Position numbers and translations under genes: made by a program. The notes below the pieces were generated by a model that did not search any database, was not told where the DNA came from, and was given only the letters and a program-made list of their open reading frames with translations. Of a stretch of DNA of 64,000 nt, positions 1,852 through 61,027 are shown in pieces. Every line of letters starts with the position of its first letter. Positions within the stretch are counted from its first letter, which is position 1. The DNA is from Fimicolochytrium jonesii (Eukaryota): assembly GCF_025526975.1 (NCBI RefSeq), contig NW_026515668.1, forward strand, positions 868,001 through 932,000. Direction: 5' to 3'.

Positions 1852-2933
1852 AGTGGGAATCCATCAAACAAGATGAAGTGGTCGGATAACGAGAGAATAG
1901 AAAAGAAGAAATGATATTCAATACGCTTTTTGCAGCTACAAAAGGGATCGAAGAAATTCAAAGTTTGTATTTACGTGAAGATTCTATAACGGTCGTCTGC
2001 CTGTCACGGAGCTGTCTGCTATTTGAAGGTTCCCGGCTTTCTAATAGACTCATGCCGACTATCTTTTCTAGCTCTTCGATCGCTTCTTTGAATTTACCGA
2101 CATAGACTCCTATGGAATGAGGAAAGGGTTAACGCTTCGTCACCGAGTGTTTGGTCGCCCCGCAACCCACCTTAGGGCCTAATGCTAATAGGGATGCTTT
2201 GCCTCACATGACTGATCCCCACCTCTCTGAAAAAGGTCCAGCCGCAAACGATTTAATCTCGGTCGGTCGGTGAAGCTGATGAGAACGGTGAGAGATTGCG
2301 GTTGTTACCTGGTGGTGGTCGGCGAAAGGATGAACTGTACACAGCTGCTCGCAATTGCGTTGCGAAGGAGGAAGTTAGTGGGCCGCCGACAGCTTTCGCA
2401 ATTGCGTTGGGAAGGCACGTTAGGCCGCGCGTCTAGAGGCGGCATGGTTTACCGAGGGTTTAGGGGTTCATGCGCGAGTAAGCCTTCCGCGCGAGTCTTT
2501 CTTATGCTCGCATTCTACATGGGGGCCGATGGTCGTATGTACACATGGGGGGAACAGGTGAGATGCACGCCTGTGGGAATGTTACACACACTACCAAGAC
2601 AGCCTCTGCCCCATGCCCATTGGACATCTGATTGGACATGGACGTCCGGATAGGATCGCCCCTGCCCGCCCCCCGACAGTTCCATTGACTTCTGGGCCTC
2701 CTCACTCACCCAGAGGGCATCATCACACTTCTGGCTGGGCCTTCTCCCCACCGACTGGCCACCACATCGCACACCGACCGCCCATCACATCATACACTTG
2801 TGAGCATTGTTGCACCCACCCCACGCGCTACAGGTACGTTTGCGTGAGTGTTTTCGCAACCCCATTGGCGCAGGTTCCTTTCCTTACATCCTCCACTCAC
2901 CCTTGTTAGCATCCCATCTTCGGTCAGGTCATC

Positions 2934-5900
2934 ATGACCTCCGACGACGACCCCACCCACGAAGAACTCATGGCCATGTGGAAGCAGCAGAGAGCACGGG
3001 GGAATGAAGCTGCTGAATGGAGGGCGGCGGCAGAGAGGGCGGCGGCAGAGAGGGCGGAGGCAGAGAGGGAGGCGGAAACGGGACCGAGTGCGACCACTAA
3101 GGTCGCTGCCAAGAAGCGAGGCGGGAAGCAAGGCGGGAAGCAAGGTGGGAAGCAAGCAGTCGGGAAGGCGACAAAGGCAATTGCGGCGGCTGCCGCGGAG
3201 AACTGCAAGCCAATTGCAGGACATGGCGGACACCAATGACGAGGACTCGAACGACGCCATATCCATCCACAGTGAAGGCCATGACATGGGGCCGCCACCG
3301 CGACCCGCACCCAACCCTGCTTCCACTGCCGCACCCAAGCCCGCTTCCACTGCCGCACCCGAATCCGCTTCCACTGCCGCACCCGAATCCGCTTCCACTA
3401 CCGCACCCGAATCCGCTTCCACAACCGCTTCCACTGCCGCACCCGAATCCGCTTCCACTGCCGCTTCCACTGCCGCACCCGAATCCGCTTCCACTACCGC
3501 ACCCGAATCCGCTTCCACTACCACTTCCACTGCCGCACCCCAATCCGCTTCCACTACCGCACCCGAATCCGCTTCCACTACCGCTTCCACTGCCGCACCC
3601 GAATCCGCCACCGTGCCCACGTCCGACATTCCTGAAACGATCCCCGCCACCGTGCCCACGTCCGACAACCCATCTAGCCAGGCGAAGAAGAAGATCAGGC
3701 TATCGGCGCTTGCCCGAGTTCGTCAACGAAACCACGGTGGTCAGTTCATGAGGGACACGCCGACCGACATCAATGTATCATCCGTTTTCCATGCCTCCGG
3801 AATCGTTGGGGATCGTTCGAATTACAAGTACACGATGATGCAGAGCATCCTGCATACAATGAACGCCATGGACACTTCCGCTCTCACTATGATGCACGCA
3901 TTGTTGTTCAGTCCCTTCGAACAGGTGCTGCGAGAAGCACATCTACGTGTCAAACGATGCCATTTTCAATCCCACCAAGAATGGCAGGACGGGATTGAGA
4001 GTTTTATATCGGGAATACATCAGAGGATGATTGAACTGTTCAGCACGAAGTTGGATTTGATGGGGGGCCATCGAGTTGATCTTCTCTCCCTGGTCTTGGC
4101 TGAACGAGAGCACGCGTCCGAGGAGGAATGGAAGGAGAAGGAGAGGGAGAAGGAGATAGAGGACAGGCAGCGAATGTAAATATACTATGCAGTTTGCTGT
4201 TTCTGTTTGAGTCTTGGAATGAAAATTGAGTATCATTTCGTGAATTTCGTGTCAGATCCATTACCTATGCCAGAGGAATGTTGTCGCCGCCGTGCTCGCC
4301 GAGCGACGGACAAACTCCAACCAAACCGAGCGACAAACAACCTCGATTGGGGCGGTTGGGGATAAACCCTGGGGATTTCGGGGCGGTTGGGGCGATGAGC
4401 GGGGTGGGGAATCCGATTGTTGTGGAGGAGGCGGGGCGGGGGGGTGTGGCGGGCTTGGTTGCGCCGGTGCTGATTGTCGGGGAGGGGCGCCGACGGGGTG
4501 GCGGGAGAGGGATGGTGCGGGTGTGGATGCGGATTTGGTGACGGAGGAGGCGAGGGGGAGGTGGGGAAGGCATTTAGGGTGGTTAAGTGAGGCTGAGGAA
4601 GGTCGACCAGCTGCGGAGGGTTCGGAATCCCCTTCGGACTCTATTTCGGGAGGCAAACGGAAACGAGGGATTCCGTCACCCCCCCCCCCCCCCCCCCACC
4701 ACCAATAACCCCCAACGACACCATCAGCGCCCTCCTCTCCACCCCGACCGCGCTCTACACCACGGCCTCCATGGGCGGCACCTCGCTCAAACCGCCCGGA
4801 CGCATTTCCTCCTGCGCACATTATAGTGCGTCCATTGCGTCCATCCACGCCCGCCGCGTCGTCACATCACCCCCGGGTGGTCACATCACCAATCGGAGCG
4901 ACGGACAAACTCCGAAGTGGGCCCCAATTACCACTGATGGCTGGCTGACCAGATGGTATCGTTCCGCGGCACCGAACGCGTTGGTGTATGCTGCCACTGA
5001 GATAACGCCGGTGAGAAAGAAAGACAAAGTGGCGTACGTCCCATCTGGAAAACAAGTCACGCTATCGGCGGGTGACCTGTGATTGGAGGACAGGCAAGGA
5101 AAACCGCTCTTTGCCGTCTTTCACGGCCAGATGGCACGGGATTATCTGGACCAAAGTCAAAACCCTTCACAACGCTCAGCAACTCCGTCCGTCAAGGGTG
5201 AGCATTTCGGGCTCACCCCTGAGCAGGATGCAGTTGTGACGCAGACTCTCTGGCGCCTGTATCAGGACCGCTCCGACATACCAGCAAGGGCAAAATCGTC
5301 TAACGTTCGATACGACGGCACCACCGATACTACCATCTTCAATGCCGGTATACATATCCCGCACGGTTCCGTGGCACAGATCCCCGTGCCGACGAAGGAG
5401 ACTAGGGACCACGAGAAGGCTTGGGCTGAAATCGTGAACGTCTTCCAGGAGACTGGGGCATCGTCGAAGCTCTGCGATGTTAAAGATTTCTTGGAGGGCA
5501 CTGACTGGCGTTCCATCCTCTCCAGCACTATCCCCGCCGAACTCCTACACTACATTGGAGGCGACCCGACAAAGCCAGAGGACCTGGTGATGCCCGGATG
5601 TTTCTGCGCCGTGAATTTCAACAACGTTTGTCGCACCCATTTCGACACGCAGAATCACGATTGGTGTCTGATGACGGCGCATGGATGGTTCCTTCGCGGG
5701 GAGTTGATTCTTCAAATGGACAACGGTACGGAGTATTTGGGGCCGATCTGGCCAGGCGACACCGTAGCCGGCTTGATGCACTGTATTCGGCACAGGAGCT
5801 CAGCATTTGAGGGGAAATTCCGTGGAACTGTCGTTTGGACGGTGAAGAAACAACTACGCGACTTGAGGAACAAGCATCCCCTGCCCCCGTTGGGAGTGGC

Positions 5901-6976
5901 CCCGTGCTCCCAACGACCTCTACCTCTGGGCCGGCAATGTGGAAAGGCGAGCCGTGGCCAAAGGTGGATGAAGAACACCTCGTCTTCCTTGAACGCGTAA
6001 TCGGCAGCACGAATATGCCGGTGGGCCAGGCTGTCGGTAAAGGAAAAGGGGCCCTGAAGATACCGGCAGAGTCGTCGATTATAGACCCCGCTACCATTGA
6101 GAAGATTGTCAAAACCGATAGCTGGCTGAATGATCAAGCTGTCAACAGGTGCGTTCCTTTTTCTGATGCGCACGTCTCATTGTTGTCTCTCACTGATGCT
6201 TTTCGTTGGATGTTACTGCTCCATATATATAGGTGGTGTGCGTTGTTACAAGCCAGGTCATTACAGCACCCGACCATTTATCCACCACTGCTAGCGGTTG
6301 GATCCACTTGGCTCCAAAGTGCCAAAATGGCACGGAGATCCAGTGTCCCTATTCGGTTTGTTCCGGTAAGAAAAGTTTTGGACTTTATTACCGTCCTGCG
6401 CTTCAACCAACTTTCCGTTTTTTGGTTGTTGTTAAGCGGTCTGTCAACGTCGCAGAGTACAACATACTGCTATTCCCAACAAACCCAGACAATCTGCACT
6501 GGGTCCTCTGGGTCCTGTTTGCAATACTCGTCGCGGTACCGGTGCCCAGGACTGCAAAACCACTACGCCCTGGTTCGCCGTTAACCAGACATGAAAACCT
6601 ATCCATCGTTTTATTTGACTCCAAGGCTTGCCCAGGCGACAAGTACTACGTTGATAAGATGGCCAATATCGGCTCCATCTTGTGGGATTGGTACACCAGG
6701 GCCACTGAAGCCCCCCTCAAAGACGCACCTACCATTGCCGCCCTCTTCACACCTCAACAGACAGATGACCAGAACTGCGGTACGTTTGTGTGCATGATGG
6801 CTGATGCCATTGCCCGGGGTGCTGTGGGTGAGGTCACGGAATCATGGGCCGATGATCCACAGACCGCCGTCAATGCCCGCCATAACATCGCACTGAGCAT
6901 CGTATTGGCGACATTTCTTAATGATGGGGATGCTCATCAGTATACGAATGTGACAAAGTGCAAGATCTATGACTGA
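2934..6976 (+). pseudogene. Decayed multi-exon gene: repeat-rich N-terminus + TET/JBP-like 2OG-Fe(II) dioxygenase + Ulp1/C48 cysteine peptidase
   Basis: Dioxygenase motifs HFD..N, GELIL, PGD..H..RH and R-x-T-V-V lie in 5083-5870. Peptidase motifs WLNDQAVN, HW, FDS and QQTDDQNCGTFVC lie in ~6120-6800. Introns are at 4176-4255, ~6149-6232 and ~6366-6436. Lesions: in-frame TGA at 5080-5082, frameshifts at ~3210 and ~5880, and a 595-bp insert. Confidence 0.7.
3316..3612 (+). repeat. Coding minisatellite (CCGCTTCCACTGCCGCACCCGAAT-type units; ASTAAPES repeats)
   Basis: Near-identical 12/24-bp tandem units are directly visible. Confidence 0.95.
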
Positions 6977-7162
6977 CTGTAGCAGTAGTCCTCTAGATTT
7001 CAATAGCAGCAATGTAGTAGTCAAAACGGCGTACATACATACATACATTCTAATAATCAGAATGGCAGTTTCTTTGCCCAGGTGAGCGTAACGGTAATCC
7101 TCACAAAAATATGCCCTACACTGCCCCCAACCGTAGGTAACGCCCAGAGGCTCTCCCACCCT

Positions 7163-8216
7163 TTACAAAACCGCCACGAGCTTCTCTGCACTGACTCGTC
7201 CGTTGGCCGAATCATCCAACCCCTTCAATACTCCCTCCAGTCCTTCCAGCTTGGTAACTTTGTTGACCTTCAACCTCCCCTGCACAAAGTACTCCAACAC
7301 CTCCTCATCAAGGACCTTCGCCACAAACTCCCCAACGGCGGGAGCAAGCCCCATAATGAACTTGAAACTGATCCCCTCGGGCGAGTTGAAGTCCGGGCTG
7401 GTGATGGAGACGATCTTTGCGGGGATGTCTGCGTTCGCCCTCAGAACTTGAGACAACTTCCCGATGGCGTCGCCGTGGCCGACAAGGTCCAGACCAGCAC
7501 GCGCGCGCCCGGCGGTGAGTTTCTTGATTTCCTCCACCACGTCGTCGCGCTTATAGTCCACGACGTGGGATGCACCCAGGCTGCGGACGAGCTCATGGTT
7601 CTTGGGGCTCGCGGTGGCGATCACGTTGTAGCCGGCCGCTGAGGCGAGTTGGACGGCGTACATGCCGACGGAGGTGGCTCCGCCCCAGATGACGACGTAT
7701 TCCGGGGCGAACCACCTGGTGTGGGTGTTGGGGCGGGCAAGCTTGAGTCCGTCGTCGGCAAAAAGGGTGTAAACGGCGGTCGACAGAGCAGTTGGGAAGG
7801 TGGCGCCGTCTTCGAAGGATAGGTTGGATGGGAGCTTGAAGGTGCGGATGGCCTCCGCGGTGCTGTACTCGCCGAACGCGTTTCCGGTGGTCAAGGCAAA
7901 GACCTTGTCGCCGGCCTTGAATCCTCGTTCGGCGGCTTTGGATCCTACTTTTGTGATCTCTCCGCTGACGTCGTAGCCGAGACGGGTTGGCCAGGACTCG
8001 ATCAAGAATCCGAAGTTGGACATTTTCCAGTCGATGGGGCTGAAAAGGAAGTAGGGAGTTAGTATCGTGTTTTCGATTGGACAACGAGATGCGCGTAGCC
8101 TACTTGATTGAAACAGCTTTGCTCTTGATGAGGACTTGGCTGTCAGAGACGGTCAGCTCCGGCACGCTTTCGATGACCAACTGGCCTTTCTCCTTGACGA
8201 TGACTGCTTTGGACAT
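7163..8216 (-). CDS. Medium-chain dehydrogenase/reductase, enoyl-reductase-like
   Basis: MSKAVIVKEKG..VLIKSKAVSIN|PIDWK is joined over an intron at ~8040-8103. It also has LGYDVSG, WGGATSVG (NADPH binding), ASPKNHELVRSLGA and a C-terminal VSAEKLV. Confidence 0.9.
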
Positions 8217-12888: not shown

Positions 12889-13692
12889 GGGGATGTATGA
12901 GCGACGGTCGATGGACGGTGATGGTATCCGAGCCCGTCGCAGACATTGTATAACTGCAGAACCCCATATAGACGCACCCCAACCCTGGATCTGGACAACT
13001 TGGTTTGGTTTCACGTCTCCGAATCCCTTTGTCCATGTTACTTGTATGTCAAATATCCCTTTTTCTCTTCAATCATATCCGACCTTCTTTTTTGGACCTA
13101 GGTTTCTACAGTATCTCGTAGCTTGCATGTCCATCCAATCCTCCATGTTCAGACGACTCTTTCCGTGCACGAGCGGTGGAATCTATGGGAGATCAGGCGC
13201 GAAGCCTCCCAAATTTCGCGCGCAAGGGCTGGCGTCGGCGGCGTTGCCGCCTCTAGACGCGCGGCCTAACGTTCCTTCCCATTGGACACGCTTCCCATTG
13301 ACCAATGGGAACCCTACGTGGCCTTCCCATTGGCCAGTAACGCCGCCGACGCCAGCCTATTATAAGTCGGGTAGCAAAAAGCCGTGTCTCCTTGAAATCT
13401 CCTATCAACCCGGACTCCACTCCATCTGGCCTCCTTATTGTAGATATATCCATTAAGCGTGGAGTCCCATCAAGCGTTCCTATTGTATGTAAGAACCTCA
13501 GAAACCTTCTCCCCCAGTCTTTGTCTTTCTTGCGGGTCCTTCTCCCCCAGTCTTTGTCTTTCTTGCGGGTCAACCGCTGTATATATTTATATGTGAATAT
13601 GAGAGAGGTGCGCTTCGAAAGTGTATGGTTGTGAGGAATATTGATATTCTATTGCTGGTGCGATACTGCATACAGGAAGTGTGGAGCGCTTT

Positions 13693-15357: not shown

Positions 15358-15426
15358 AACTGTTTCCGAGATGCGGGGAGTTTGCGAGCAGAAGCAACAA
15401 GGAAGTTGGGCGTCAGGAGGGGTTTA

Positions 15427-15493
15427 AAAGGCGCCTCACTCACTCTGCCGAGATGCTTAGCGTTCTGGAAAACCGTTAGAAACGTTCGGAGCG
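15427..15493 (+). repeat. 67-bp direct repeat, copy 1 (upstream of TRP4)
   Basis: Matches 17309-17375 with 2 mismatches. Confidence 0.92.
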
Positions 15494-17260: not shown

Positions 17261-17308
17261 GGGTTGACAGGGTTGAAAAAGTTGAAAGGCGCCTGTCTGA
17301 CAGGGTTG

Positions 17309-17375
17309 AAAGGCGCCTCACTCACTCTGCCGAGATGCTTAGCGTTCTAGAAAACCGTTAGAAACGTTTGGAGCG
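17309..17375 (+). repeat. 67-bp direct repeat, copy 2 (downstream of TRP4, upstream of ARPC1)
   Basis: Matches 15427-15493. Confidence 0.92.
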
Positions 17376-21188: not shown

Positions 21189-22289
21189 CTAAGAGCCAAC
21201 CTTCACGCCCACCACCACCTCCATCCCCCCCAGACTCTCCCCCTCATCCTCCGCCAACACGTCAAACCCAACTTCCCGCATATAATTCCCCACCCACTCA
21301 CTACTCAACGCCAGCTTATGGTACCACGACTTGCACATATCCCACGTCCCATTGCCCTTGCGCACGTAGACGAGGTCATGTACTTTCACGCGGCGGCCGC
21401 TGCCGCATGGTGCTATTTCCCGTGCGGCGGAAGACTCGACGTGTGCCTGGTGGTGGTGGGGTGATGCGTTGATGCTTGTTGTATTTCCATTAGTCTTTTG
21501 ATTCCCCGCAGCGAGGCCGTTGAACTCCTGCTGCGGTGTCCGTTTCCCCGTACAGTCGCCCTCGACGTATCCAGCGTCGCCGGTGTCTACATCACATTCG
21601 CCTTCCCATTCCAGGAAGCATGTGAAGATGGTCGAGCTGTCGGATTGGACGGGGACGAAGCGGTCTGTGCCGCGGAGTGGGCGTGTGAGGTCGCGGAACT
21701 GCAGGACCAGCCTCCCGCCGGGTTTCAACGCCGCGTGGGCATCCGCGACGACTTTGCGGACCTCGTTGAGCGTCGCGAGGTGGGATAACGTGTCCCCCAT
21801 GCAGACGATGACGGCGGCGGTGGCGTCTGGGACGTACGATGGGAAGAGGAGGAGGTCGTCGTGGGCTGTGGTGAGATGGTGTGAGGGCAGGTTTTGGTGC
21901 GGGAGTTCGGAGGTGAGTTCAGCGAGCATTTGTGGGGATGCGTCGAGGGCGAGGACGGTGTAATGCAGATGAAGAAGGGGGATGGTTTGGAAGCCCGGTC
22001 CGCAACCCAGATCCACCGCCAGGGGTCTCTCCTCATCGTCCCCGGGTGGTGGTGTGATTTTCGGGAGGTAACGTTGTAACAGGGTACGATTTTGAGCCAG
22101 TTTCGTGGCGAACCCGCCAAAGAGCCAGATGTAGTGTTCGGTGAGGAGACGGGCGTAGTGGGTTTGGACTTGGAGGTAGTTGGAGGAGGTGAGGATTGGG
22201 CGGGTTGGGGAGGTGAATGTAAGGGGTGGGCGGGGTTGTTGCGGGTGTTGGTGGCCGCCGGTTGGGAGGGGTTGGGCGGCGTCGCACAT
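21189..22289 (-). CDS. Class I SAM-dependent methyltransferase, intronless, bacterial-like
   Basis: AVDLGCGPGFQ, LDASPQML, VCMGDTLSHL, LKPGGRLVLQFRD. Confidence 0.88.
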   Translation of the reverse strand: MCDAAQPLPTGGHQHPQQPRPPLTFTSPTRPILTSSNYLQVQTHYARLLTEHYIWLFGGFATKLAQNRTLLQRYLPKITPPPGDDEERPLAVDLGCGPGFQTIPLLHLHYTVLALDASPQMLAELTSELPHQNLPSHHLTTAHDDLLLFPSYVPDATAAVIVCMGDTLSHLATLNEVRKVVADAHAALKPGGRLVLQFRDLTRPLRGTDRFVPVQSDSSTIFTCFLEWEGECDVDTGDAGYVEGDCTGKRTPQQEFNGLAAGNQKTNGNTTSINASPHHHQAHVESSAAREIAPCGSGRRVKVHDLVYVRKGNGTWDMCKSWYHKLALSSEWVGNYMREVGFDVLAEDEGESLGGMEVVVGVKVGS

Positions 22290-22800
22290 TGCGGGTAGAT
22301 AGATGGTGAGGAGGTTAGGGAGGAGGGAGCAGACAGTTGGCGGGGGGTAGTTGTTTCCCTCTCGAAGGAATAGTGACTGCAACGAGAGCCTATGAGACGG
22401 CTGCTCTTGCGGTAGGATATCTACTTACTTGGGGGCGAGTGTCAGAAAGGCCGGTCGGTGTTCGTTGGGGGAAAAAGATGAAGAGGGCAGCGGAGAACTC
22501 AGGGGAGACTCTGGGGGAGGGAGCGCGTTCTTCCGTGAGTCATCACCGCCATTGCGCAATCCGCGTGCAAGAAGCAGTCGGGATGATGTCTGTTAACGAA
22601 AGGGTTAACCCTAACCCCTCCTGACATTCCTCTAAGGCAGAGACTGTCCACTGGCTTCCAGGCAACGTGCACTAGTAAGCATAACGGCATTGCAGGGGCT
22701 TTGCAGCCATAGCAATCGCCCCGCCTACGGCGGCTCTCTGTGGAATGCAAATGCAGAATGTCACCTGAATGCGATTCTGTCTGTGCAGGAATGGCAGGAG

Positions 22801-22837
22801 CTTGACCCTAACCCTAACCCTAACCCTAACCTAACCC
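22801..22837 (-). repeat. Interstitial (TTAGGG)n array in a divergent intergenic region
   Basis: CCCTAA x4-5; another GGGTTAACCCTAACCC lies at ~22602-22617. Confidence 0.9.
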
Positions 22838-23089
22838 AGATCAGATGCGCCCTGCCATCCCTCAAGATGTCCGCCTGTTCGGACGGTTGTCAGTCCCCGG
22901 CAGACGATGTTTGACCTGACACCCCGACCACCCCTCACTGACGTTGAGCGCATTAATACTGGTGAAGCATAAGAGAGTACATACGTGTACATATATGAAA
23001 GCTGCTCGCGTGCACCGTTGGAGATTGCAAAGAGTGTTTGAGGAAACCATTTCCACGGGAGTTCAACTAGAAAGAAGGGAAGGGTAGGG

Positions 23090-37635: not shown

Positions 37636-38329
37636 TTAACGTGCGGTGTTGGTGGCTTTCGGATACCCGTAGATGCCTTCGTATGTAATGAAACTCGACA
37701 TTACGAGCAAGGCTGCCCCATGCGAGTGGCATCACTTATTGCCGAGACTGATCAATCAACCTCAACATCCCGCCCATCCCGTGCGAGAGAAGCTGTGTAA
37801 GAACAAACTCAGCAATTAGCCCTTTAAGATCCGGCATGCAGTTGAATGGAAACTCCATGGATGTGTAGGGTGCTGTAGATATGACCAAAGATGCCACCGG
37901 TTGCCCGAGAAGTTGCCGTGGTGTGGCCCATGGCCGCGTGAAGTCCGTACCGGTGAGGCCCGGTGTTCTCTTCGAATAATACTGAGAAGTTGCCATCATC
38001 GACTGGGATACCCGAGACGCCACGGCCGCCGCTTGTTGCCTGCATCATCATCAGCATGATGCCGTTCGGTTGGTCGTTAACCCGCAATACTCGTGAATAC
38101 CCATAAGTTGGCGCATCAGGCTCCTGGCCTGGATTGCACAAGAGGCGCTCGTTTTCGTCGCCGGGAAGTATGGCAGCCAACTCTTGCAGCGCCTCCTCCC
38201 GGTTGATGCCGGTGGCCTGTACTATTAACTCGTATACGTACAGTACTCCGGGTCGGTGTCCGTGAACTCATGATTCTGCGGGCACGGCATGGTTGTTATC
38301 ATTGACCTCCGGGGCCAGAAGTTCTGCTC

Positions 38330-38500
38330 GTGTACATACGTTGGTGGAGTGGCGTTGTAGAGTCGCAAGACATCGACGTGAAACGTTGGATGTTGACGGG
38401 ACAGGGTGGCCGGAAGGCGTAGCGTGAACGTGTTCGGGGTTGGTCCTGGCTTGACCACCGGAAACCGGCCGAGGTACCGGCCGGGGCAAGATCTTGAGGC
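38330..38500 (-). mobile_element. Ty3/Gypsy integrase C-terminal (GPY/F) fragment
   Basis: RYLGRFPVVKPGPTPNTFTLRLP..HPTFHVDVLRLY, which parallels the segment at ~63790-63910. Confidence 0.7.
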
Positions 38501-39099
38501 TCGAGTTGGGTAGTTCCTTGTATATGGGCTCCGGGTAAGATGCGGGTATCTCATGACACTCCGACACCCCCGAGAATTCGTCGAAAATCGACTCCAATGC
38601 ATCAACCTCAACGAAACGACCCCAGGACTTACACCGAACGTTCCGCCTCCCCATCCACCGCTTCCACAGCTGCCACCTCCACCTCCACCTCCACGCCATC
38701 CAAGAAAGCAAAACATCGTCATATCGAACACCACGTCACCTGCACAGATGAGATCTCGAACGTTTCTTGGTTGGCCGGCCGGTAGGTACCGTGCTTCGTT
38801 TGTGGTTTTCCTCCGCTCGTGGTTTTTCGCGAGCGTCGTGTTACTGTCAAAATCGCGAGGTGGAATCCGTTTGGAAATGTGCCACTATTTTTGGCCACGG
38901 CACTGGCAGCAACTTGGCCGCAACATTCGTAGCACGGCAGCCATATATAGCAACTGGAGCGGTCCGCCATGTGGTTGCCGGTTGGTAAGTGGAAAAGCCG
39001 CAGGGCTAAGTGAGAGTATAAGAGCAATGCCAGAAGTGTTTGCCGCCCCATCGAACGTTTTTCCAAGTTTCCAATAATATTTACAACCAGCACTTCAGA

Positions 39100-40422: not shown

Positions 40423-41424
40423 CCTATTAGATCTAGAGTAATTCATTCGTAGGTGCAACAGTGATCCATTGGAATATTGCTCCTGTGTATCATAGAGAGC
40501 GCGTATTGAGCCGAACACAATCAACGATTTTGGGACTGCTTGTCGTACATGCATCAAATAGAGCGCCCCGGGTAGAATCGACCGATGGTTCAAGAGGTTC
40601 CTCCGGCTCGGTTCCCTTCTGAGAGACGTCGGAGGTTGCGAGTAGGAATACGAGCGGCGGTGATAACGCGACGCGTTCCTTCCTTCCTGCGCTCTTCCGG
40701 GCGGGGAAGGGCAGTATTTGGCGACGGCGGGTTTGGAGGGTTGCGAGTGGGTTGGGGGAGGAGTGGAATGGGAGGGAGACTAAAAAAAGACCCGAGTGTC
40801 AAATAGTCTGGAGACGTATAAAAGCAGGAGGGTCTCGCTGGCGCCCCTTTTCTTGGCCGCACGTTACGCGTCTTGCGAGCTCCTCTTTCCACCTTTTCAC
40901 CCCTGAATCATCAATAGGCAGAATGGCTGTAACAACTCTCGACATCTCCTTTCATCACGCTCATAAGCGTTTTGAATCCACAACCCAACTCGTTGGAGTG
41001 CTTATCTTCTTGAGTCTGTTTCCGCTGACCATTGTGCAATCTGCTTTCCAAGTCGAATTGGAGAGACGGAGTAAGTCTTCTTTTTTGTATGCTTATGCAG
41101 AGTAGAACAATAAAAATGAACAGTATCCCTTTCTTTTTACAGAGTCCGAACGCAAGCAGCTGCGTGATAACGCAAACGCTGTCAATACAATATTTGACGA
41201 GGTGGAGCGAATGCGGGCGGCACGAGGAGGCAAGCGCCCTTTGAAGATTCTCGCTGTCGGAAAGAAGCCTCTACCGATACCTGTAGATTGTCATGACAAA
41301 GCTGACACCTCTTCTCGGCATTGATCCACTGAGATCCACTGCTTGCGGAGAAGGTGTCGCGTTTGAATCGCGATGACGAGCTCCTACAAAGAATGGTTGA
41401 TGATTGGCCTGATGGTTTCCCGGC

Positions 41425-42000
41425 TCGTTTCCAGCTCTGTGCCGCGCGCATTCGTTCCTGGATGAGCGTCACCATGTCGCCCATACGCTTCATCCATACG
41501 TCAGCGGGGGTGTGGGCTTCCTCTTGCATGCCCATGTTGCGCGGGGTCTGAGGATGGAAACCGAGGTCGGCCTGAAAGGGGGTCATTCCAGTGCTGGCGT
41601 TGACGCTATCGTTGTATCCGAACTCCAGCGCCGAGATGTAGCGACTCCAATTTCGCCCATTGAGGTCTGGGTTCGCCGCTATCATCTGTTTGATGGTCTG
41701 GATGGCGCGTTCTGACTGACCGTCGGATTGTTGATGGTTCGCGGTCGCTATTGCTGTGTGGAAACCCATATAATCGGGTATGGTTCTCCACATCTCCGAG
41801 GTGAGCTTCGAGTCGCGGTCGGTGACGATAGTGGTCGGTATACCATGTAAGCGGACGATGTTGTCGACGAAAAGTTGGCCAAACCCTTCCGCAGTGATCG
41901 TGCAGTGAGTAGGAACGAGGTGCACGCGCTTCGTCAAGCGGCAGACAAACACCGCAAGGAGGTCACGCCCGCAGTCGTCCTCAGGCATGTAGGCAAAGTC
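41425..42000 (-). mobile_element. Ty3/Gypsy integrase core fragment
   Basis: VCRLTKRVHLVP, IVRLHGIPTTIVTDRD, HQQSDGQSERAIQ, EFGYN..STGMTPF. Confidence 0.9.
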
Positions 42001-42099
42001 GACCGGGTGTTACGAGCATGTCCGCTACTTTTCACGGGGCCTGAGGGCGGATCTGCGCGTACCCATCATCGCCCAGCACCAGGCCATGGAATTGACGGT

Positions 42100-43623
42100 T
42101 GAGGACATGCACGACATTGCAAACCGTCTTGATGTGGCCCTCAACGGCGCTCGCCCCGACTACGTAGGGCCTTCGGCCACCGCCCCATGTTTGCTTCTTC
42201 GTCCACCCCTAAACCCCTGCCCGCGCTCCCCGCCCCGGCCAACCCCTGGCCGTTGAAACGAGGCGCGGCCGTCCAGCAGATCAAGGCGGAACCACAACTC
42301 AAACGACCGCGGCTGATGGTACCACGACTGACCCCAGAGGAGCGCGACCGTTGCATGCCGGAACGGCCTCTGTTTACGGTGCCGCCAACCCGGACATCTC
42401 GCCGCGCAGCGCCCGACATCCAACAAATTGAAACGGACGCACCTCCGACGCCAGGGGCGGCTGGCGGCGCCATGGTCCTCCACCCTGACCGCGAAGCTCA
42501 AGTGGATTTTTAGAGGGTCCCGGGGCGACGACCACGCCACTGGGACCCTACCAAGGTCGCCCACCCGACACCGCTTCGGGCCCGCCCAAGAGACGACGCC
42601 CGCAAGCCCACCGCGATGACGAGCTCAGGCCCCCGAAACGCGTGCGCTTCGTAAACCATACAACTGTCCGCTACTTTGAGAAACACCGACCTCCACACTC
42701 CCGGTCGCCGCGGACCATATCCAACGAAACCTCAGAACCTCTTTCCATCGAACCCCCTCCGCGCTCAGAACCCTACGAACCTCCCGTTGACAACGAACCA
42801 CCCGAACCCCTTTCCATTCAACCACGATCCCTGGGACACTCTGAACCTACCACTGATTCCCCTACGCCGAAACCCCCGCACAAAGACAAACCACAATTCC
42901 TCGAACACTCTGAACCTACCACTGAATCCCCGACGTCCACATGTGGGTCCACAACCCTAACCCGGTTAGGGTTACCAACCCTAATCCCCAACCTCACAAC
43001 CCTAGCCCGGGTAGGGTTACCAACCCTGATCCCCAACTTCACAACCCTAACCCGGTGATAACCCTAATCCCCAACAAACCACAATTCCTCGAACACTCCG
43101 AACCAACCACTGAACCCCCGACGTTCACACCCCGCACATACAGTAGACGCCACAACCATCATGGACCCCCGAGAGCCCCAGGACCCGTCGCCGTCGCAGC
43201 CGCGCAAACCTCGCGCAATCTCTGATTCACGGCTACAACCACAGACGACTGCAAGAGTACGACTTGAAGATACAATACCTCCCCGGAGAGACGAACACGC
43301 TCGCGGACTTGCTATCCCGTCGGCCAGACTATGCTCCTCGCTGTGTCAAGTGCCAGTCGCGGGCACAAGTCGAAACTTCCTCCATCGTTCTCAACACCAG
43401 CACCGATCTGCACCAGGAAGTGAAGACCCTCCTCGAAACGGACGACTACGGCCATAAGATCCTCGCCGCCCTGGCTCTTCCGGAGGCCAGGCGATCCCAG
43501 CACGAACCCCGATTTCATACGTCCGACGGGTTGCTATACTACGACAACCGCCTATACATCCCGAAAGGACCCCTGCGTGATCAACTCCTCTTCGACGCCC
43601 ACGCAGCCGACGCGGCAGGATGA
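42100..43623 (+). mobile_element. Degenerate Ty3/Gypsy gag-pol fragments with internal repeats
   Basis: LQEYDLKIQYLPGETNTLADLLSRRPDY..GLLYYDNRLYIP..LFDAH (RNase H/integrase junction), plus tandem repeats at 42830-43125. Confidence 0.75.
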
Positions 43624-53129: not shown

Positions 53130-53183
53130 TTAGGGTTAGGGCTAGGGTTAGGGCTAGGGCTAGGGTTAGGGCTAGGGTTAGGG
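53130..53183 (+). repeat. Interstitial telomeric array: 9 hexamers, mixed TTAGGG/CTAGGG
   Basis: Directly counted; it sits inside one copy of a local duplication. Confidence 0.95.
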
Positions 53184-53619
53184 TTGTATTGTCAGGAATC
53201 GTTGCCAATTTCACAGGGCGTCTTCAGAGTTGTCACTCTACAGTCGTCGCTCTGTGCTCTGGACGATGGGCGCACTCAACACTGGCCGCAGCATCTTTGC
53301 ATTACCAGGTATCGTTGCCAATTTCACAGGGCGTCGCCAGAGTTGTCACTCTACAGTTATCGCTCATCTTGCCGGAAATAAGTGGCCAGAAGTCTGGTTA
53401 CCTCGCCTGTCAATAGTGTCATTCTGTGACATAAGCGCCTGTCAATTTGTCGGAGGGATATTTTTCTCCAAAGAATGCCGATTAAGGAAGCCCCGCAGAC
53501 ATACAGGCACAGCGAGCAAATATCGTTTGGCGCACCACAGTTTGAGAGAGCTCCAGAAGATACGGAGATCCAGTCAAAGCCACTAAGCCAACTCCCACAC
53601 AAACCACAAACTGCCCACC

Positions 53620-54832: not shown

Positions 54833-55810
54833 TCTCCACATCATTAACCAAGAAGAAAGGACTCGGGTGGGATCGAACGTATCAATCGTTCGCGGTGCCT
54901 GATGCAAACTGGATGGAGAGTTTTGGAGCGAAAGAAGGGGTGTGTTGGAGTCCCGAGTGGGATTGGACATTGACGTGTGTTTCGGGCGTGTTCCTACATC
55001 TTTACACTTGTACGCTACCATCAATCATATGCGTGATTTTCTTTTCGAAGTGGCGGCTGGGAGTCGTGCGTGGGAGTGACATTATTGTTAAGATAGGATG
55101 TAGGGGTTTTCTGAGATGCATCCTGAGTACGACGGATTGTTGAGCCTCCCTGTGCAACCTGGGAGTCACTGGCCAGAAACCCAGAAGTCACTGGTCAGAA
55201 ACCCAGAAGTAACCGGCCAGCTGTCAGTCTTGCCGTGGGCTAGCGATCCTGCTTGAAAGGGTTTGCGAGGTGTCGGTAACTTGGGCCGATGGCCCTGGTT
55301 GGGATGATGTGTCCGTCGGGCGTCGTAGCCAAATCTCTAGCAGCTTACTAGCCTACTGTAATGCGGACACCAGAGCTCATCAAAGCAATCGATTTTTGGG
55401 TCGGGAGGGCGTCGATGGACGCGATGTTGGGCGTCGATGTTGTCGGGAGGCGCACCAGATCGGCCCGACGGGAAGAAAAGGGGCCCACCGGACGGGGAAG
55501 AGGTTACGATTCTTTCACAGGACAAAACAGTAGGTGGCCAGATATCCGGGTGAATGCCAAGTCCCGCTAGTCCCACACGTCAATTTGCCGCAACGGACAG
55601 CTGTTGTGCAACAGATCGCAGAATCGATGACTTTTGCGCGTTGGGACGGCATCGGTGTGTAAAGAGTGCAATCTGCCGATGGGCGTCCATATGTGCGGGG
55701 GTACGGTACAACAGACTGGGACATGCATGCGGGGCGGAGGGAAGACAGACCAGACAGTACAGTAGCGAGCTTGGGAAGACTGCCAAGGAGGATTCGAGCG
55801 GCACCTCACT

Positions 55811-55855
55811 TCTAACCATAGCCCTAACCCTAACCCTAGCCCTAGCCCTAACCCC
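55811..55855 (-). repeat. Interstitial telomeric array (CCCTAA/CCCTAG) ~100 bp upstream of AP-3 sigma ATG
   Basis: Directly visible. Confidence 0.9.
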
Positions 55856-55951
55856 AAGTGCATGGGCATCGCGGAAGGCTGTTACTCGCGACTTCTGAAC
55901 CCACTTCTGATCCCAACCAGCATCAACTTTACAGGAAAAAGAAAAGCAAAT

Positions 55952-57890: not shown

Positions 57891-58816
57891 CTACCTACGG
57901 TTACGGGAGAATGCGTCTGGTCTGCGGCCATTGCCAAACACCACCGAACGCACAATCGAGAGGAAATTCTTGGTGCTTAGGACGTCCCGATTGTGCACTC
58001 TCATCCGTAGTGGTCGTCTTCCAGGAATCTCAAATGGCGTCCAGTCTTGGTTGATACATTCGGGGTTGGGGCAACCCACCAATCCATGGACGAATTCCAT
58101 TCTTCCCTTTTGAGCTTGCCGCGGCCGAGGTGACAGCCGGCGTCAGATGTTTTTCTTCACACGCCCGTGGCAGTCTGGGCACACGGAAGACGTTCGATAC
58201 TCATCTAGCAAGTAGCATGGGATGCTGTTTCTTGCAAAGAGTGTGCGGAATCTGATTTCCATGATGATGAGTTAGCATATTAAAATACATAAAAAACAAT
58301 GATGGTCACTCACCCCTTGGTGTTTGATGACTCCTGAAAGCGCATGGTTTTTCCAGCGTCGCTCCAATCACCCAAGATGACCGCAAAATGCTTTCCATAC
58401 AGGCGTCGCATGTTCTTGATGAGCTTGGTCTCAGACTTTTGCCGCAGTGAGAACGCCTTGAATCTGTGAGCTACGTGAATCGCATTCTGGTAAAACTCAT
58501 CCAGGGCGGGATCTGGGATATGGATGGATGTCAGCCCATGTGTTACCAAAGTTGAAAATCAAAGTTGAAGTAGAACATCATACACGCATGTCAGTGATCC
58601 ACAATGAACGCTGAGAACGCCTCGATTTTCATGCTCTAGTGCGATGGAATATGTGATTCCATCTCAGCGATGCCGGCATTGATCTTTCGCTCCGTCATAT
58701 CTCTCCGAAAGTAACGAGACTTTGTCTTGACCGCCCGTTGATTGGATGTGTATCTGATGGGGTGGTGCATTCTGAGATTACTACTGCCCTGCTATCCCCG
58801 CTATCCCCGCTATCCC

Positions 58817-58847
<31 letters not shown>

Positions 58848-61027
58848 ATTCCCGCTGTCCCCGCTGTCGCCGCTATCCCCGCTGTTGCCGCTGTTGCCGC
58901 TGTCGCCGCTATCCCCGCTGTCCCCGCTGTCCCCGCTGTTGCCGCTATCCCCGCTGTCGCCGCTATCCCCGCTGTCGCCGCTATCCCCGCTGTCGCCGCT
59001 ATCCCCGCTGTCCCGATATCCCGCTGTCCTTGCTGTCGCCGCTGTCCCCGCTGTCACCGTTATCCCCGCTGTCCCGCTATCCCGCTGTCGCCGCTATCCC
59101 CGCTGTCCCGCTATCCCGCTGTCCCCACTGTCGCCGCTGTCCCGCTATCCCGCTGTCCCCGCTGTCGCCGCTGTCCCCATTGGCGCCCTCCTCAACCGTC
59201 CCCGTCCCCGTGCCCACGATCCCCTTCGTTCGACAGACATTCCGCAATCAGCTGAAATGTACCTAAATGGCCGCTCCTTCTTGATGTCTCGACAGAACAA
59301 GAGGTCACGCTTGCCCAGATCAATGCTGACGATGTTTGGAGCCTCCCTTAGTACGGCGATGTGGTGCTCAAAATACAGCTGTTTGACTTCTTCCTGCATT
59401 TGGGCTTTGCTGCGCTTCCGGGCGCGATGGCCGTACTTGAGCCCTGGCTTCTTGAAGTGGATGGTAGCGGAATACCCGTTTGTGCTGATTGACCCATCAA
59501 ATTTGAGACCAAGCTTCTTTCAATGCTTGAAGACCTTGTCCTGCAATCCGTCATTCAGCGAGGTGAGGTGAGTGAAATAAGCGCAGAGGGATAGAGACTT
59601 ACATTCACGTTGAGAAACTGCCCCCACAGCTCCCGCTTGCGTTGATCGGTGAGTTTCCCCATGCGATGGCAGCCCAAGGCCAGGATATGAGTGGTTAGGA
59701 TCTTCGTGTCGATCCAAACAGATGACTGGATTCGAGATTTGCGCAGCGGGATAGCGGAAAACAGCCGCATTCCACGGCGCTCATAGAGGCATGAGAGCTC
59801 ACAATAGGCACCTGTGATGAGGCGAGGCAGGTGCGGACCATGATTAGACAAAAGAGGAACCCGCGGGGAGGGGGGGGCCGGAAATATACTAACTCACCTA
59901 AATATGGCATTGCGTCCACCGCAAGGCTGTATGCAAACGGTTCATCCTGGGGAGGAAACAGAGCCCATAACTCGTCGAGGACAGTCCGCTCAAGTCGTGT
60001 GAGGCGGGCAAACTCCTCTTCGGTTGGAAATCTCTTCAAATGTCGCATACTTTGTAAACTGACGGACACGCCGATAATAGCGTCGCCGCTGCGCTCGGTT
60101 GACTCCGGCACGGAGATGCAGTACGACTTGCTTCAAACCAAGCCTTTCATTGACGTAGCGCAGAAGCATTTGCATGAAATGCTCTTTTACGTTAACTTTG
60201 AGGTTTGTGAGGATGCTCGTAGCCGTGTACGCTGCGGTCTGTTGGCAATTTCGCATGCGGATGGGGGCGAATCCGTGAACATCACAGTAGTCTTGAACCC
60301 ACAGACGCAACTCTTGCGCGATGACTGGATTGCCATTGTAGCCTGGATTGTTTAGCAGCTCAAATATCACACTGATGTGCTTGTCGGTGATGTCCGGGAA
60401 ATCGTGTAGAGGATGATCAGCTGCGGTCAGCAGAGCAGACGTAACAGTCAGGACATTGTTTTATGGCAAATATACAGTGCACCTCAAAAACTCACCAAGG
60501 TAGTACTTGAGAAAGAAGGTGGTGTGGCGCGCAAGGATGTGAACATTGCCGATGAACGTTGTCAGGCGCTCCCTTTGAGCTTGATTTTGATTATGGATTC
60601 GGTGAAGCAAAACCTTGGTGCTGGCATGTGTTTGCGGGCTGGGTCGTTGAACTGGTGGTGGTGGCGGGGGCTCAAGCACCAGGGATCCACCCGGTGTGCT
60701 GGGAAAAAGGAAAGGGATGGGAGCGGGGAGGTTCAACGGGCGCTGCAGACCCCTGTCCGCGGTTGAAAGCCCTCTCTGCGGCTGCTGCTGCTGCCCGTCT
60801 TCATCGCCGGAGCTCTCGCCAACCATGTCTGCAATTGCTTGGGGCAAGTGGCGTTGGACCGAAGGTGGGAACTCGAATTGCGGGGGTTGCAATGGTGTGG
60901 CTGGCAGACGTATGGGCAACCGCAGGGTAACCGGAGTAACCTTCCTCCTCTTCCGCCGCCGTGGTGTGGTTACTCCGGTAAAGATGCCACACCACAGGTG
61001 CCCCTGGAGCGCCTGGTGTGATGACAT
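57891..61027 (-). pseudogene. Fanzor1 (eukaryotic TnpB-like RNA-guided RuvC endonuclease), six introns, inactivated
   Basis: RuvC-I SIDLGKRD; VILGDWS..KG|FRTLF; RuvC-II LLDEYRTSSVCPDC; Zn finger VHGLVGCPNPEC; RuvC-III HNRDVLS. Also TNLKVNVKEHFMQMLLRYVN and FSAIPLRKS..IDT. Four in-frame stops and one frameshift. Confidence 0.92.
58788..59180. repeat. 9-bp-unit minisatellite (CCGCTRTCS) within Fanzor intron 4
   Basis: About 40 tandem units between the GT donor at 59262 and the AG acceptor at 58754 (minus strand). Confidence 0.95.

What the first reader, a model, noticed from the sequence alone, without database searches (positions are those of the whole stretch)
2934..6976. Reconstructable TET/JBP-like dioxygenase fused to a Ulp1 SUMO-protease domain in a decayed accessory gene
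Seen: five ORF pieces can be joined. Intron 4176-4255 puts ORF 3004 in frame with the 4278 frame. Removing the 595-bp insert continues into the 4771 frame. A single TGA (5080-5082) separates this from the HxD..H..R dioxygenase. Adding one C to the C4 run at ~5878-5881 joins the WLND/HW/D/QxxxxNCG peptidase. Known: fungal TET/JBP genes travel with KDZ (Kyakuja-Dileera-Zisupton) transposons, and Ulp1-like domains occur in Zisupton-type elements. Inference: one polypeptide may couple DNA-base oxidation with deSUMOylation, a possible anti-silencing cargo in a chytrid. No transposase was recognised in the window.
Basis: partly seen in the sequence, partly recalled or inferred. Interest (0 to 1): 0.8.

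Follow-up and report, generated by a model that had tools for sequence, protein, structure and literature searches.

The report
Dead TET/JBP gene abutting SUMO-protease cassette
A likely chytrid fungus carries a broken gene for a predicted DNA-base-oxidising (TET/JBP-type) enzyme directly upstream of a multicopy SUMO-protease-like cassette, but the two are out of frame where they meet and no relative found joins them, so this is most likely shuffled transposon-cargo debris rather than one two-enzyme protein.

Summary
The pieces are real; the fusion is not supported. The intron (4176-4255), an 18-bp repeat 595 bp apart, the TGA at 5080 and the +1 join all check out. The dioxygenase is TET/JBP-like (ESM Atlas 0.96; HxDxxN…H…R, no AlkB second Arg), though Pfam misses it and the fold test was inconclusive. 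The TGA lies inside a block conserved in relatives, so this copy is likely dead. The peptidase is Peptidase_C48 (E 4e-7). None of 6 dioxygenase homologue clusters carries Ulp1; 2 carry a PHD finger. None of 3 Fimicolochytrium jonesii Ulp1 paralogues carries TET. The frame break falls in the ~65 nt between the two homology blocks, where the TET C-terminal helix is lost. There is no DNA transposase in the window and no terminal repeat or target duplication around the locus. Best reading: a decayed mosaic of mobile-element cargo. What remains new is a divergent TET/JBP lineage in a likely chytrid. A genuine fusion has about 20% probability.

The parts
2834..2909 (+). Likely 5' (UTR) intron, GTACGT..TTAG, 76 nt, upstream of ATG 2934
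   Evidence: Splice signals and size like host introns; inferred, no RNA data
2934..4175 (+). N-terminal piece of unknown origin. ATG 2934 frame stops at 3237-3239; frame break near 3195-3217; Ala/Ser/Thr/Pro tandem repeat 3248-3643; helical-looking region to 4175
   Evidence: Translation, repeat. No Pfam family above cut-off, no Atlas hit, no match to the TET homologues or Ulp1 paralogues beyond low complexity
4176..4255 (+). Predicted intron, 80 nt, phase 2; holds the stop of the upstream frame
4301..4913 (.). Two 18-bp direct repeats (4301-4318, 4896-4913) enclosing a GC-rich segment with a long C run; insertion or scrambled duplication
4870..5877 (+). Divergent TET/JBP-like 2OG-Fe(II) dioxygenase region. 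Nonsense TGA 5080-5082, an insertion of about 18 codons near 5130-5183, HxDxxN 5638-5655, H 5791, R 5821. The C-terminal W-x-x-L helix of the homologues is absent
   Evidence: Atlas, alignments, homologue HMM built without the window E 7e-50. Annotated in part as P0004, 289 aa from M5132 to stop 6000
5866..5931 (+). Junction between the two homology blocks; contains the frame break and three homopolymer runs (5878, 5884, 5900)
5931..6976 (+). Ulp1/Peptidase_C48 cassette. Uninterrupted 294-aa spliced ORF from ATG 5937 (introns 6149-6232, 6366-6436); H 6497, D 6617, Q 6758, C 6776; in-frame 9-nt duplication just after the catalytic His
   Evidence: Pfam PF02902 E 4.4e-7; about 80% identical F. 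jonesii paralogues; translation

Best explanation
The locus is most likely a decayed mosaic of mobile-element cargo, in which a likely dead, TET/JBP-like dioxygenase gene was probably joined by recombination, out of frame, to a multicopy Ulp1-like protease cassette. Shown: the lesions, the two homology blocks, the frame break between them, and the missing TET C-terminal helix. Also shown: the cassette recurs in F. jonesii behind unrelated N-termini. Inferred: the intact ancestor of the dioxygenase used Fe(II)/2-oxoglutarate (HxD, H, R) to oxidise a methylated DNA base. 5mC is the likeliest substrate, because the residue three after the Asp is Asn rather than the Gly/Ser linked to 6mA activity in CcTET. 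It would have helped its carrier transposon escape methylation silencing, as proposed for other fungal TET-bearing elements. The present copy would give at most an N-truncated 289-aa product lacking conserved strands. The Ulp1 ORF is still open but has no evident promoter of its own and an in-frame duplication beside its catalytic His, so it is probably decaying too.
For: (a) The TET homology ends at about 5835-5866, and homologues continue into a conserved W-x-x-L helix that neither window frame encodes. Cassette homology starts at 5931, tentatively 5907. The frame break lies in that ~65-nt gap of a 3213-nt reconstructed CDS. Two random breaks would hit it about 4% of the time, or about 16% if breaks are homopolymer errors (3 of 36 runs). 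A random join is out of frame 2 times in 3. These are my estimates. (b) 0 of 6 TET homologue clusters (P0005, P0006/10, P0007/11, P0008, P0012, P0013) has Peptidase_C48; 2 have an N-terminal PHD. (c) 0 of 3 Ulp1 paralogues has TET upstream, and they show two unrelated N-termini. Their own damage: P0002 lacks the His/Asp region, P0003 lacks the Asp strand. (d) A search for longer (467-2000 aa) relatives of the dioxygenase found none among 603 candidates (weak evidence). (e) The TGA sits inside the conserved 'IVED.dG.PL' hairpin. (f) GC3 is 0.59-0.64 against 0.73-0.79 in four host genes. The locus sits between ordinary host genes.
Against: The homologues come from 1.1-6.2-kb contigs and were probably called without splicing, so a downstream spliced Ulp1 exon or neighbouring gene could be missed. 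No genome or reads were available, so unannotated fused paralogues and assembly errors were not tested. One base does restore an in-frame join, and a C4 run lies there. The two parts are co-oriented with almost no spacer, and the Ulp1 part has no lesion that breaks its frame. No element ends or transposase were found, so 'transposon cargo' is itself inferred.
Confidence: 0.62

Rival explanations
1. A genuine ancestral TET/JBP-Ulp1 fusion gene (about 1050 aa, 3-4 introns), carried by a transposon as dual anti-silencing cargo, later inactivated by a nonsense codon, two frameshifts and an insertion.
For: Single-base repair joins the frames, the 18-bp repeat removal keeps frame, and all splice sites are canonical. 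Both domain types are known cargo of DNA transposons: TET/JBP in 11 lineages (PMC12730594), Peptidase_C48 in Helitrons (PMC11417382). The cassette appears fused to other N-termini in the annotated paralogues, although gene predictors force such joins.
Against: The break coincides with the module boundary and the TET C-terminal helix is lost. No fused relative from either side. The N-terminal join has no homologue support, and part of the 'insert' aligns better with TET homologues.
Confidence: 0.2
2. Two or three separate, adjacent genes of one mobile element (N-terminal gene, TET gene, Ulp1 gene), telescoped together by internal deletions; the linkage is ancestral but the products were separate.
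For: Transposons usually encode such captured domains in separate ORFs (PMC11417382 section 22; PMC12730594). The window lacks the WWNR motif that all three paralogues have just before PAMW, consistent with deletion at the junction. The Ulp1 ORF is open from its own ATG 5937.
Against: The three paralogous cassettes are not preceded by TET in their annotated proteins, though their DNA context could not be read. No element ends.
Confidence: 0.13
3. An intact host gene whose breaks are assembly errors.
For: Long homopolymer runs are common in this window; a C run lies at the proposed break.
Against: A nonsense substitution, two frame breaks, a 595-bp scrambled segment, a ~54-nt in-frame insertion and a 9-nt duplication are too many and too varied. 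Neighbouring host genes read cleanly.
Confidence: 0.05

Closest known systems
TET/JBP dioxygenases of fungal DNA transposons (PU, AG and PE types; Kojima 2025, PMC12730594; CcTET)
   Same: Same motif order by eye against Table S1: an N-terminal hairpin with D-x-x-G, then N-x5-H-x-D, a G-x-x-x-G strand, PG, H and a terminal R. Atlas top hits are Tet_JBP clusters, mostly Basidiomycota.
   Different: Host is likely a chytrid; 'chytrid' occurs 0 times in that paper's main text and supplement. No significant sequence hit to Pfam Tet_JBP or to solved TETs. Closest relatives are unnamed environmental proteins at 25-40% identity, some with a PHD finger. No carrier element is seen, and this copy is broken, whereas the paper describes those coding regions as mostly undisrupted.
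Transposon-borne Ulp1/Peptidase_C48 domains (Helitrons, PMC11417382; Zisupton and plant MULE elements, both recalled and not confirmed by my searches)
   Same: Divergent, multicopy, partly decayed C48 domain with His-Asp-Cys and oxyanion Gln.
   Different: Not attached to any transposase in the window; recurs behind unrelated N-termini in F. jonesii. SUMO specificity is untested; C48 also covers deneddylases and deubiquitinases (own knowledge).
AlkB/FTO-type dioxygenases
   Same: Same DSBH metal triad; FTO is the top, non-significant Foldseek hit (E 0.06, TM 0.17) of a low-confidence model.
   Different: No second Arg six residues after the terminal Arg (AlkB RxxxxxR, recalled) in the window or in any of the 6 homologues shown; all ten best family-bearing Atlas hits agree with Tet_JBP.

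Membership tests
TET/JBP 2OG-Fe(II) dioxygenase | HxD..H facial triad plus terminal 2OG-binding Arg | tested here: met
   H5638-x-D5644, H5791, R5821; invariant in all 8 rows of alignment A3
TET/JBP 2OG-Fe(II) dioxygenase | Profile match to Pfam Tet_JBP (PF12851) | tested here: inconclusive
   Window: no hit. 1 of 8 aligned members (P0007) hits at E 0.064, below cut-off. Atlas features 0.96, 205 of 256 shared, 27 of 30 hits Tet_JBP clusters
TET/JBP 2OG-Fe(II) dioxygenase | TET-type DSBH fold rather than AlkB or prolyl hydroxylase | tested here: inconclusive
   Models at pLDDT 35 and 45; Foldseek gave no match at E<=0.001 and ranked FTO first at E 0.06; the wider structural comparison did not run
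TET/JBP 2OG-Fe(II) dioxygenase | Oxidises 5mC, T or 6mA in DNA | not testable with these tools
   Needs an assay of an intact homologue
Ulp1/Peptidase_C48 | Pfam PF02902 above cut-off with His, Asp, Gln, Cys | tested here: met
   30.4 bits vs cut-off 20.7, E 4.4e-7; residues located
Ulp1/Peptidase_C48 | Cleaves SUMO conjugates | not testable with these tools
   No assay possible
KDZ (Kyakuja-Dileera-Zisupton) transposon | Linked KDZ transposase or CxC domain | tested here: not met
   0 of 194 six-frame ORFs of 110 aa or more outside the locus hit a DNA-transposase family at E<=1e-4; only LTR-retrotransposon domains. Short or spliced remnants could be missed
KDZ (Kyakuja-Dileera-Zisupton) transposon | Terminal inverted repeats and/or 7-8-bp target-site duplication around the cargo | tested here: inconclusive
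   Only eight scattered exact 8-bp matches between 1950-2934 and 6960-7170, none extending; decayed ends or a TIR-less Kyakuja would not show
   Out of frame here; 0 of 6 TET homologue clusters and 0 of 3 Ulp1 paralogues fused

The most novel reading that the evidence does not exclude
A chytrid transposon lineage evolved a single protein joining a TET/JBP DNA-base oxidase to a Ulp1-type SUMO protease, erasing a DNA mark and a protein silencing mark together. It did so in a fungus whose genome is rich in 6mA; this locus is its decayed relic, and intact copies await in unannotated or related genomes.
Probability: 0.2. Interest if true: 0.7.

Novelty: new variant of a known kind. Interest (0 to 1): 0.36.

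Why it matters
Even without the fusion, the locus likely extends TET/JBP genes to Chytridiomycota. The 2025 survey of TET-bearing fungal transposons covers only rusts, mushrooms and Pezizomycetes (PMC12730594). It also exposes a small divergent subfamily that Pfam misses, with intact environmental members, two of them PHD-TET proteins that would couple histone-mark reading to base oxidation. F. jonesii has over 1% 6mA (PMC11258239), and CcTET oxidises both 5mC and 6mA, so the substrate of this lineage is a testable question. A true TET-Ulp1 fusion would be a new anti-silencing architecture, but the evidence here favours accidental juxtaposition in a pseudogene, which limits the interest.

Tried and rejected
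No whole genome is held for this window, so paralogue DNA could not be read. Sequencing runs: none was listed; no evidence either way on reads or expression. Related loci: none confirmed in metagenome contigs (101 and 70 pattern matches, 0 passed tblastn) or viral contigs (27 matches, 0 passed). No match in phage records or meaningful PHROG family. Sequence and profile searches of solved structures found no TET. Single-sequence fold was meaningless (pLDDT 35). P0009 (E 3e-4) was dropped from the homologue count because it lacks the catalytic motifs; P0014 and P0015 were listed but their sequences not examined. A 651-nt intron 4176-4826 also gives an in-frame join but is far longer than neighbouring introns; not favoured. 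The 37-bp inverted match 2408-2444/13245-13281 was considered as element ends and rejected: it would enclose housekeeping-type genes, and the right arm is part of a local 131-bp palindrome. No CpG depletion in the TET part (o/e 1.01) and mild in the Ulp1 part (0.80), not diagnostic. Iyer et al. 2014 (PMC3918813) is not held, so its treatment of SUMO peptidases or chytrids was not seen. Searches for a published TET-Ulp1 link listed none by title; I read passages only in PMC12730594, PMC5751038, PMC6416283, PMC12062965, PMC11417382, PMC3417536, PMC6431247, PMC13297926, PMC11258239 and PMC13533422. Earlier scan notes: nothing for this genome or sequence.

Full report
1. OBSERVATION. Intron 4176-4255 has GT..AG ends and 80 nt, close to neighbouring host introns of about 68-78 nt. 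An exact 18-bp repeat lies at 4301-4318 and 4896-4913. Among all exact 18-mers repeated at 200-1000 bp spacing in the window it is 1 of 12; the other 11 belong to one tandem array. Removing the 595 bp keeps the frame. One TGA (5080-5082) precedes the dioxygenase core, and one added base near 5880 reaches WLND. That join, however, goes out of frame before the catalytic Ulp1 residues and then stops. Two more introns are needed (6149-6232 and 6366-6436), and both fit the spliced paralogue P0001. There is also a second frame break: the ATG 2934 frame stops at 3237-3239 and the long frame takes over near 3200. A likely 5' intron lies at 2834-2909 (inferred from splice signals).

2. ORGANISM AND CONTEXT. 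The Ulp1 exon finds two proteins among 709 candidates, both named Fimicolochytrium jonesii, at 80-81% identity; a third is a cluster member. The window is therefore likely this chytrid (Spizellomycetales) or a close relative. The dioxygenase core is itself on record as a separate 289-aa protein, P0004. Neighbours are ordinary host genes: zinc dehydrogenase, protein disulfide isomerase, isocitrate dehydrogenase and others. 0 of 194 other six-frame ORFs hit a DNA-transposase family; only LTR-retrotransposon domains appear, far downstream. No terminal repeats or target duplication stand out around the locus. GC3 is 0.59-0.64 against 0.73-0.79 in four host genes.

3. THE DIOXYGENASE. Pfam gives no hit. 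The ESM Atlas gives 0.96 to Tet_JBP clusters, with 205 of 256 features shared and 27 of 30 hits. HMMER over 1.8 billion representatives gives 6 hits at E<=0.001: the window's own protein, four real relatives (29-40% identity) and P0009, which I dropped for lack of the motifs. A profile search added P0012 and P0013 (only the best 7991 candidates were scored, and it missed P0004 and P0007, so it is incomplete). All 8 aligned rows keep H-x-D, H and R. None of the window and 6 homologues shown has the second Arg typical of AlkB (motif recalled). By eye the motif order matches the PU, AG and PE TET domains in Table S1 of PMC12730594 (parts 1 and 9 of 20 seen). Against this, the fold test is inconclusive: pLDDT 45, best Foldseek hit FTO at E 0.06 and TM 0.17, and sequence searches of solved structures found no TET. 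I put TET/JBP at about 85%. The TGA falls inside a conserved hairpin (F-I-V-E-D in homologues), and homology continues upstream of it, so it is a nonsense lesion. The window also has about 18 extra codons absent from all homologues. The residue three after the metal-binding Asp is Asn in the window and in 5 of 6 homologue clusters (Ser in P0006/P0010). CcTET has Gly there, linked to 6mA recognition (PMC12730594 section 3.4). I therefore infer a pyrimidine, probably 5mC, substrate; the TET2 Asn parallel is recalled.

4. THE PEPTIDASE. Peptidase_C48, 30.4 bits against a cut-off of 20.7. From ATG 5937 the spliced ORF is open for 294 aa with His, Asp, Gln and Cys in place, but a 9-nt duplication follows the His (LHWVLWVLF against LHWVLF in P0001 and P0003). 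The paralogues are damaged in other ways: P0002 lacks the His/Asp region and P0003 the Asp strand. They carry two unrelated N-termini, neither matching the TET region.

5. IS IT A FUSION? 0 of 6 TET homologue clusters has a C48 domain. All six run through a W-x-x-L helix into a low-complexity tail and stop, and 2 of 6 have an N-terminal PHD finger. 0 of 3 Ulp1 paralogues has TET. A search for longer dioxygenase relatives found none (weak by the tool's own note). An HMM of the homologues built without the window matches it at E 7e-50 but ends at about 5835-5866. Confident cassette homology starts at 5931, and neither frame encodes the homologues' last helix. The break thus lies in the ~65 nt where one module ends and the other begins. 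In a 3213-nt CDS two random breaks would land there about 4% of the time, or about 16% if they are homopolymer errors (3 of 36 runs). A chance join is out of frame two times in three. That favours out-of-frame juxtaposition by roughly 4- to 16-fold (my estimate). Limits: the homologues sit on 1.1-6.2-kb contigs and spliced downstream exons could be missed; no genome, paralogue DNA or reads were available.

6. MECHANISM. Most likely (0.62) a pseudogenic mosaic made by recombination among mobile-element cargo modules. Its TET part descends from an enzyme that oxidised methylated DNA bases and likely helped its element evade silencing, the role proposed in PMC12730594 (discussion) and not yet tested there. 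Rivals: a true ancestral fusion (0.20), separate genes of one element telescoped by deletion (0.13), assembly error (0.05).

7. PRIOR KNOWLEDGE. PMC12730594 (parts 1-4 of 7 read, plus term searches) reports TET/JBP in 11 DNA-transposon lineages of rusts, mushrooms and Pezizomycetes, including Helitrons. 'Chytrid', 'Ulp', 'SUMO' and 'protease' occur 0 times in its main text and in its supplement as held, where long cells are cut. PMC11417382 (section 22 read) lists Peptidase_C48 and a 2OG-Fe(II) oxygenase among domains captured by Helitrons, mostly in ORFs separate from the transposase. PMC5751038 (passages) lists KDZ elements in Basidiomycota, Rhizophagus, Mucoromycotina and Allomyces, and few DNA transposons in five chytrids. 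PMC11258239 (passages) gives F. jonesii over 1% 6mA. Ulp1 in Zisupton is recalled only; one search found no held paper with both terms. Iyer et al. 2014 could not be read, so a chytrid or SUMO-peptidase mention there cannot be excluded. Five searches listed no TET-Ulp1 fusion.

8. VERDICT. Observation partly confirmed, interpretation partly supported. New variant of a known kind: a divergent TET/JBP lineage in a likely chytrid, dead at this locus and adjacent to a Ulp1 cassette. Interest 0.36; the fusion reading has probability about 0.2 and would merit about 0.7.

Noticed in passing
P0007/P0011 and P0008 (JGI/IMG proteins): Intact-looking relatives of the dioxygenase carry an N-terminal ING-like PHD finger (Pfam E 2e-4 and 2.5e-5): a PHD-TET architecture in unnamed environmental sequences.
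   Followed up: partly
window 3248-3643 vs P0001/P0003: The window's tandem repeat read on the minus strand (VE..ADSG units) resembles the repeat that P0001/P0003 carry on the Ulp1 strand (tblastn E 0.007 with filters). A possible shared module in opposite orientation; weak.
   Followed up: partly
window 2408-2444 and 13227-13357: A 37-bp stretch upstream of the locus matches, inverted at 97%, part of a 131-bp palindromic element with 19-bp perfect arms; possibly a small non-autonomous element family.
   Followed up: partly
window 15421-15493 and 17303-17375: A 73-bp direct repeat (95%) flanks a gene with Glycos_transf_3 domains (anthranilate phosphoribosyltransferase-like).
   Followed up: no
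window 22793-22843, 42950-43084, 53131-53185, 55803-55858: Interstitial telomere-like CCCTAA/TTAGGG runs; the pair at 53.1 and 55.8 kb is inverted and 2.6 kb apart.
   Followed up: no
window 61266-64000, 41182-42009, 38228-38884: LTR-retrotransposon remnants: RT, RNase H, integrase zinc finger and SH3 domains with stops and frame breaks at 61-64 kb, an integrase-like ORF at 41-42 kb (by eye), an SH3 fragment at 38 kb.
   Followed up: no
window 58657-59263: 9-bp tandem array giving a collagen-like (Gly-x-y) frame on the minus strand.
   Followed up: no
window 21192-22424 (-): Class I SAM methyltransferase ORF without apparent introns (Methyltransf_25 E 3e-13).
   Followed up: no
P0002 residues about 410-480: The N-terminal part of this Ulp1 paralogue holds a globular-looking W..GWP segment with no Pfam hit. 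It recalls, from memory only, small domains of fungal transposon accessory genes.
   Followed up: no
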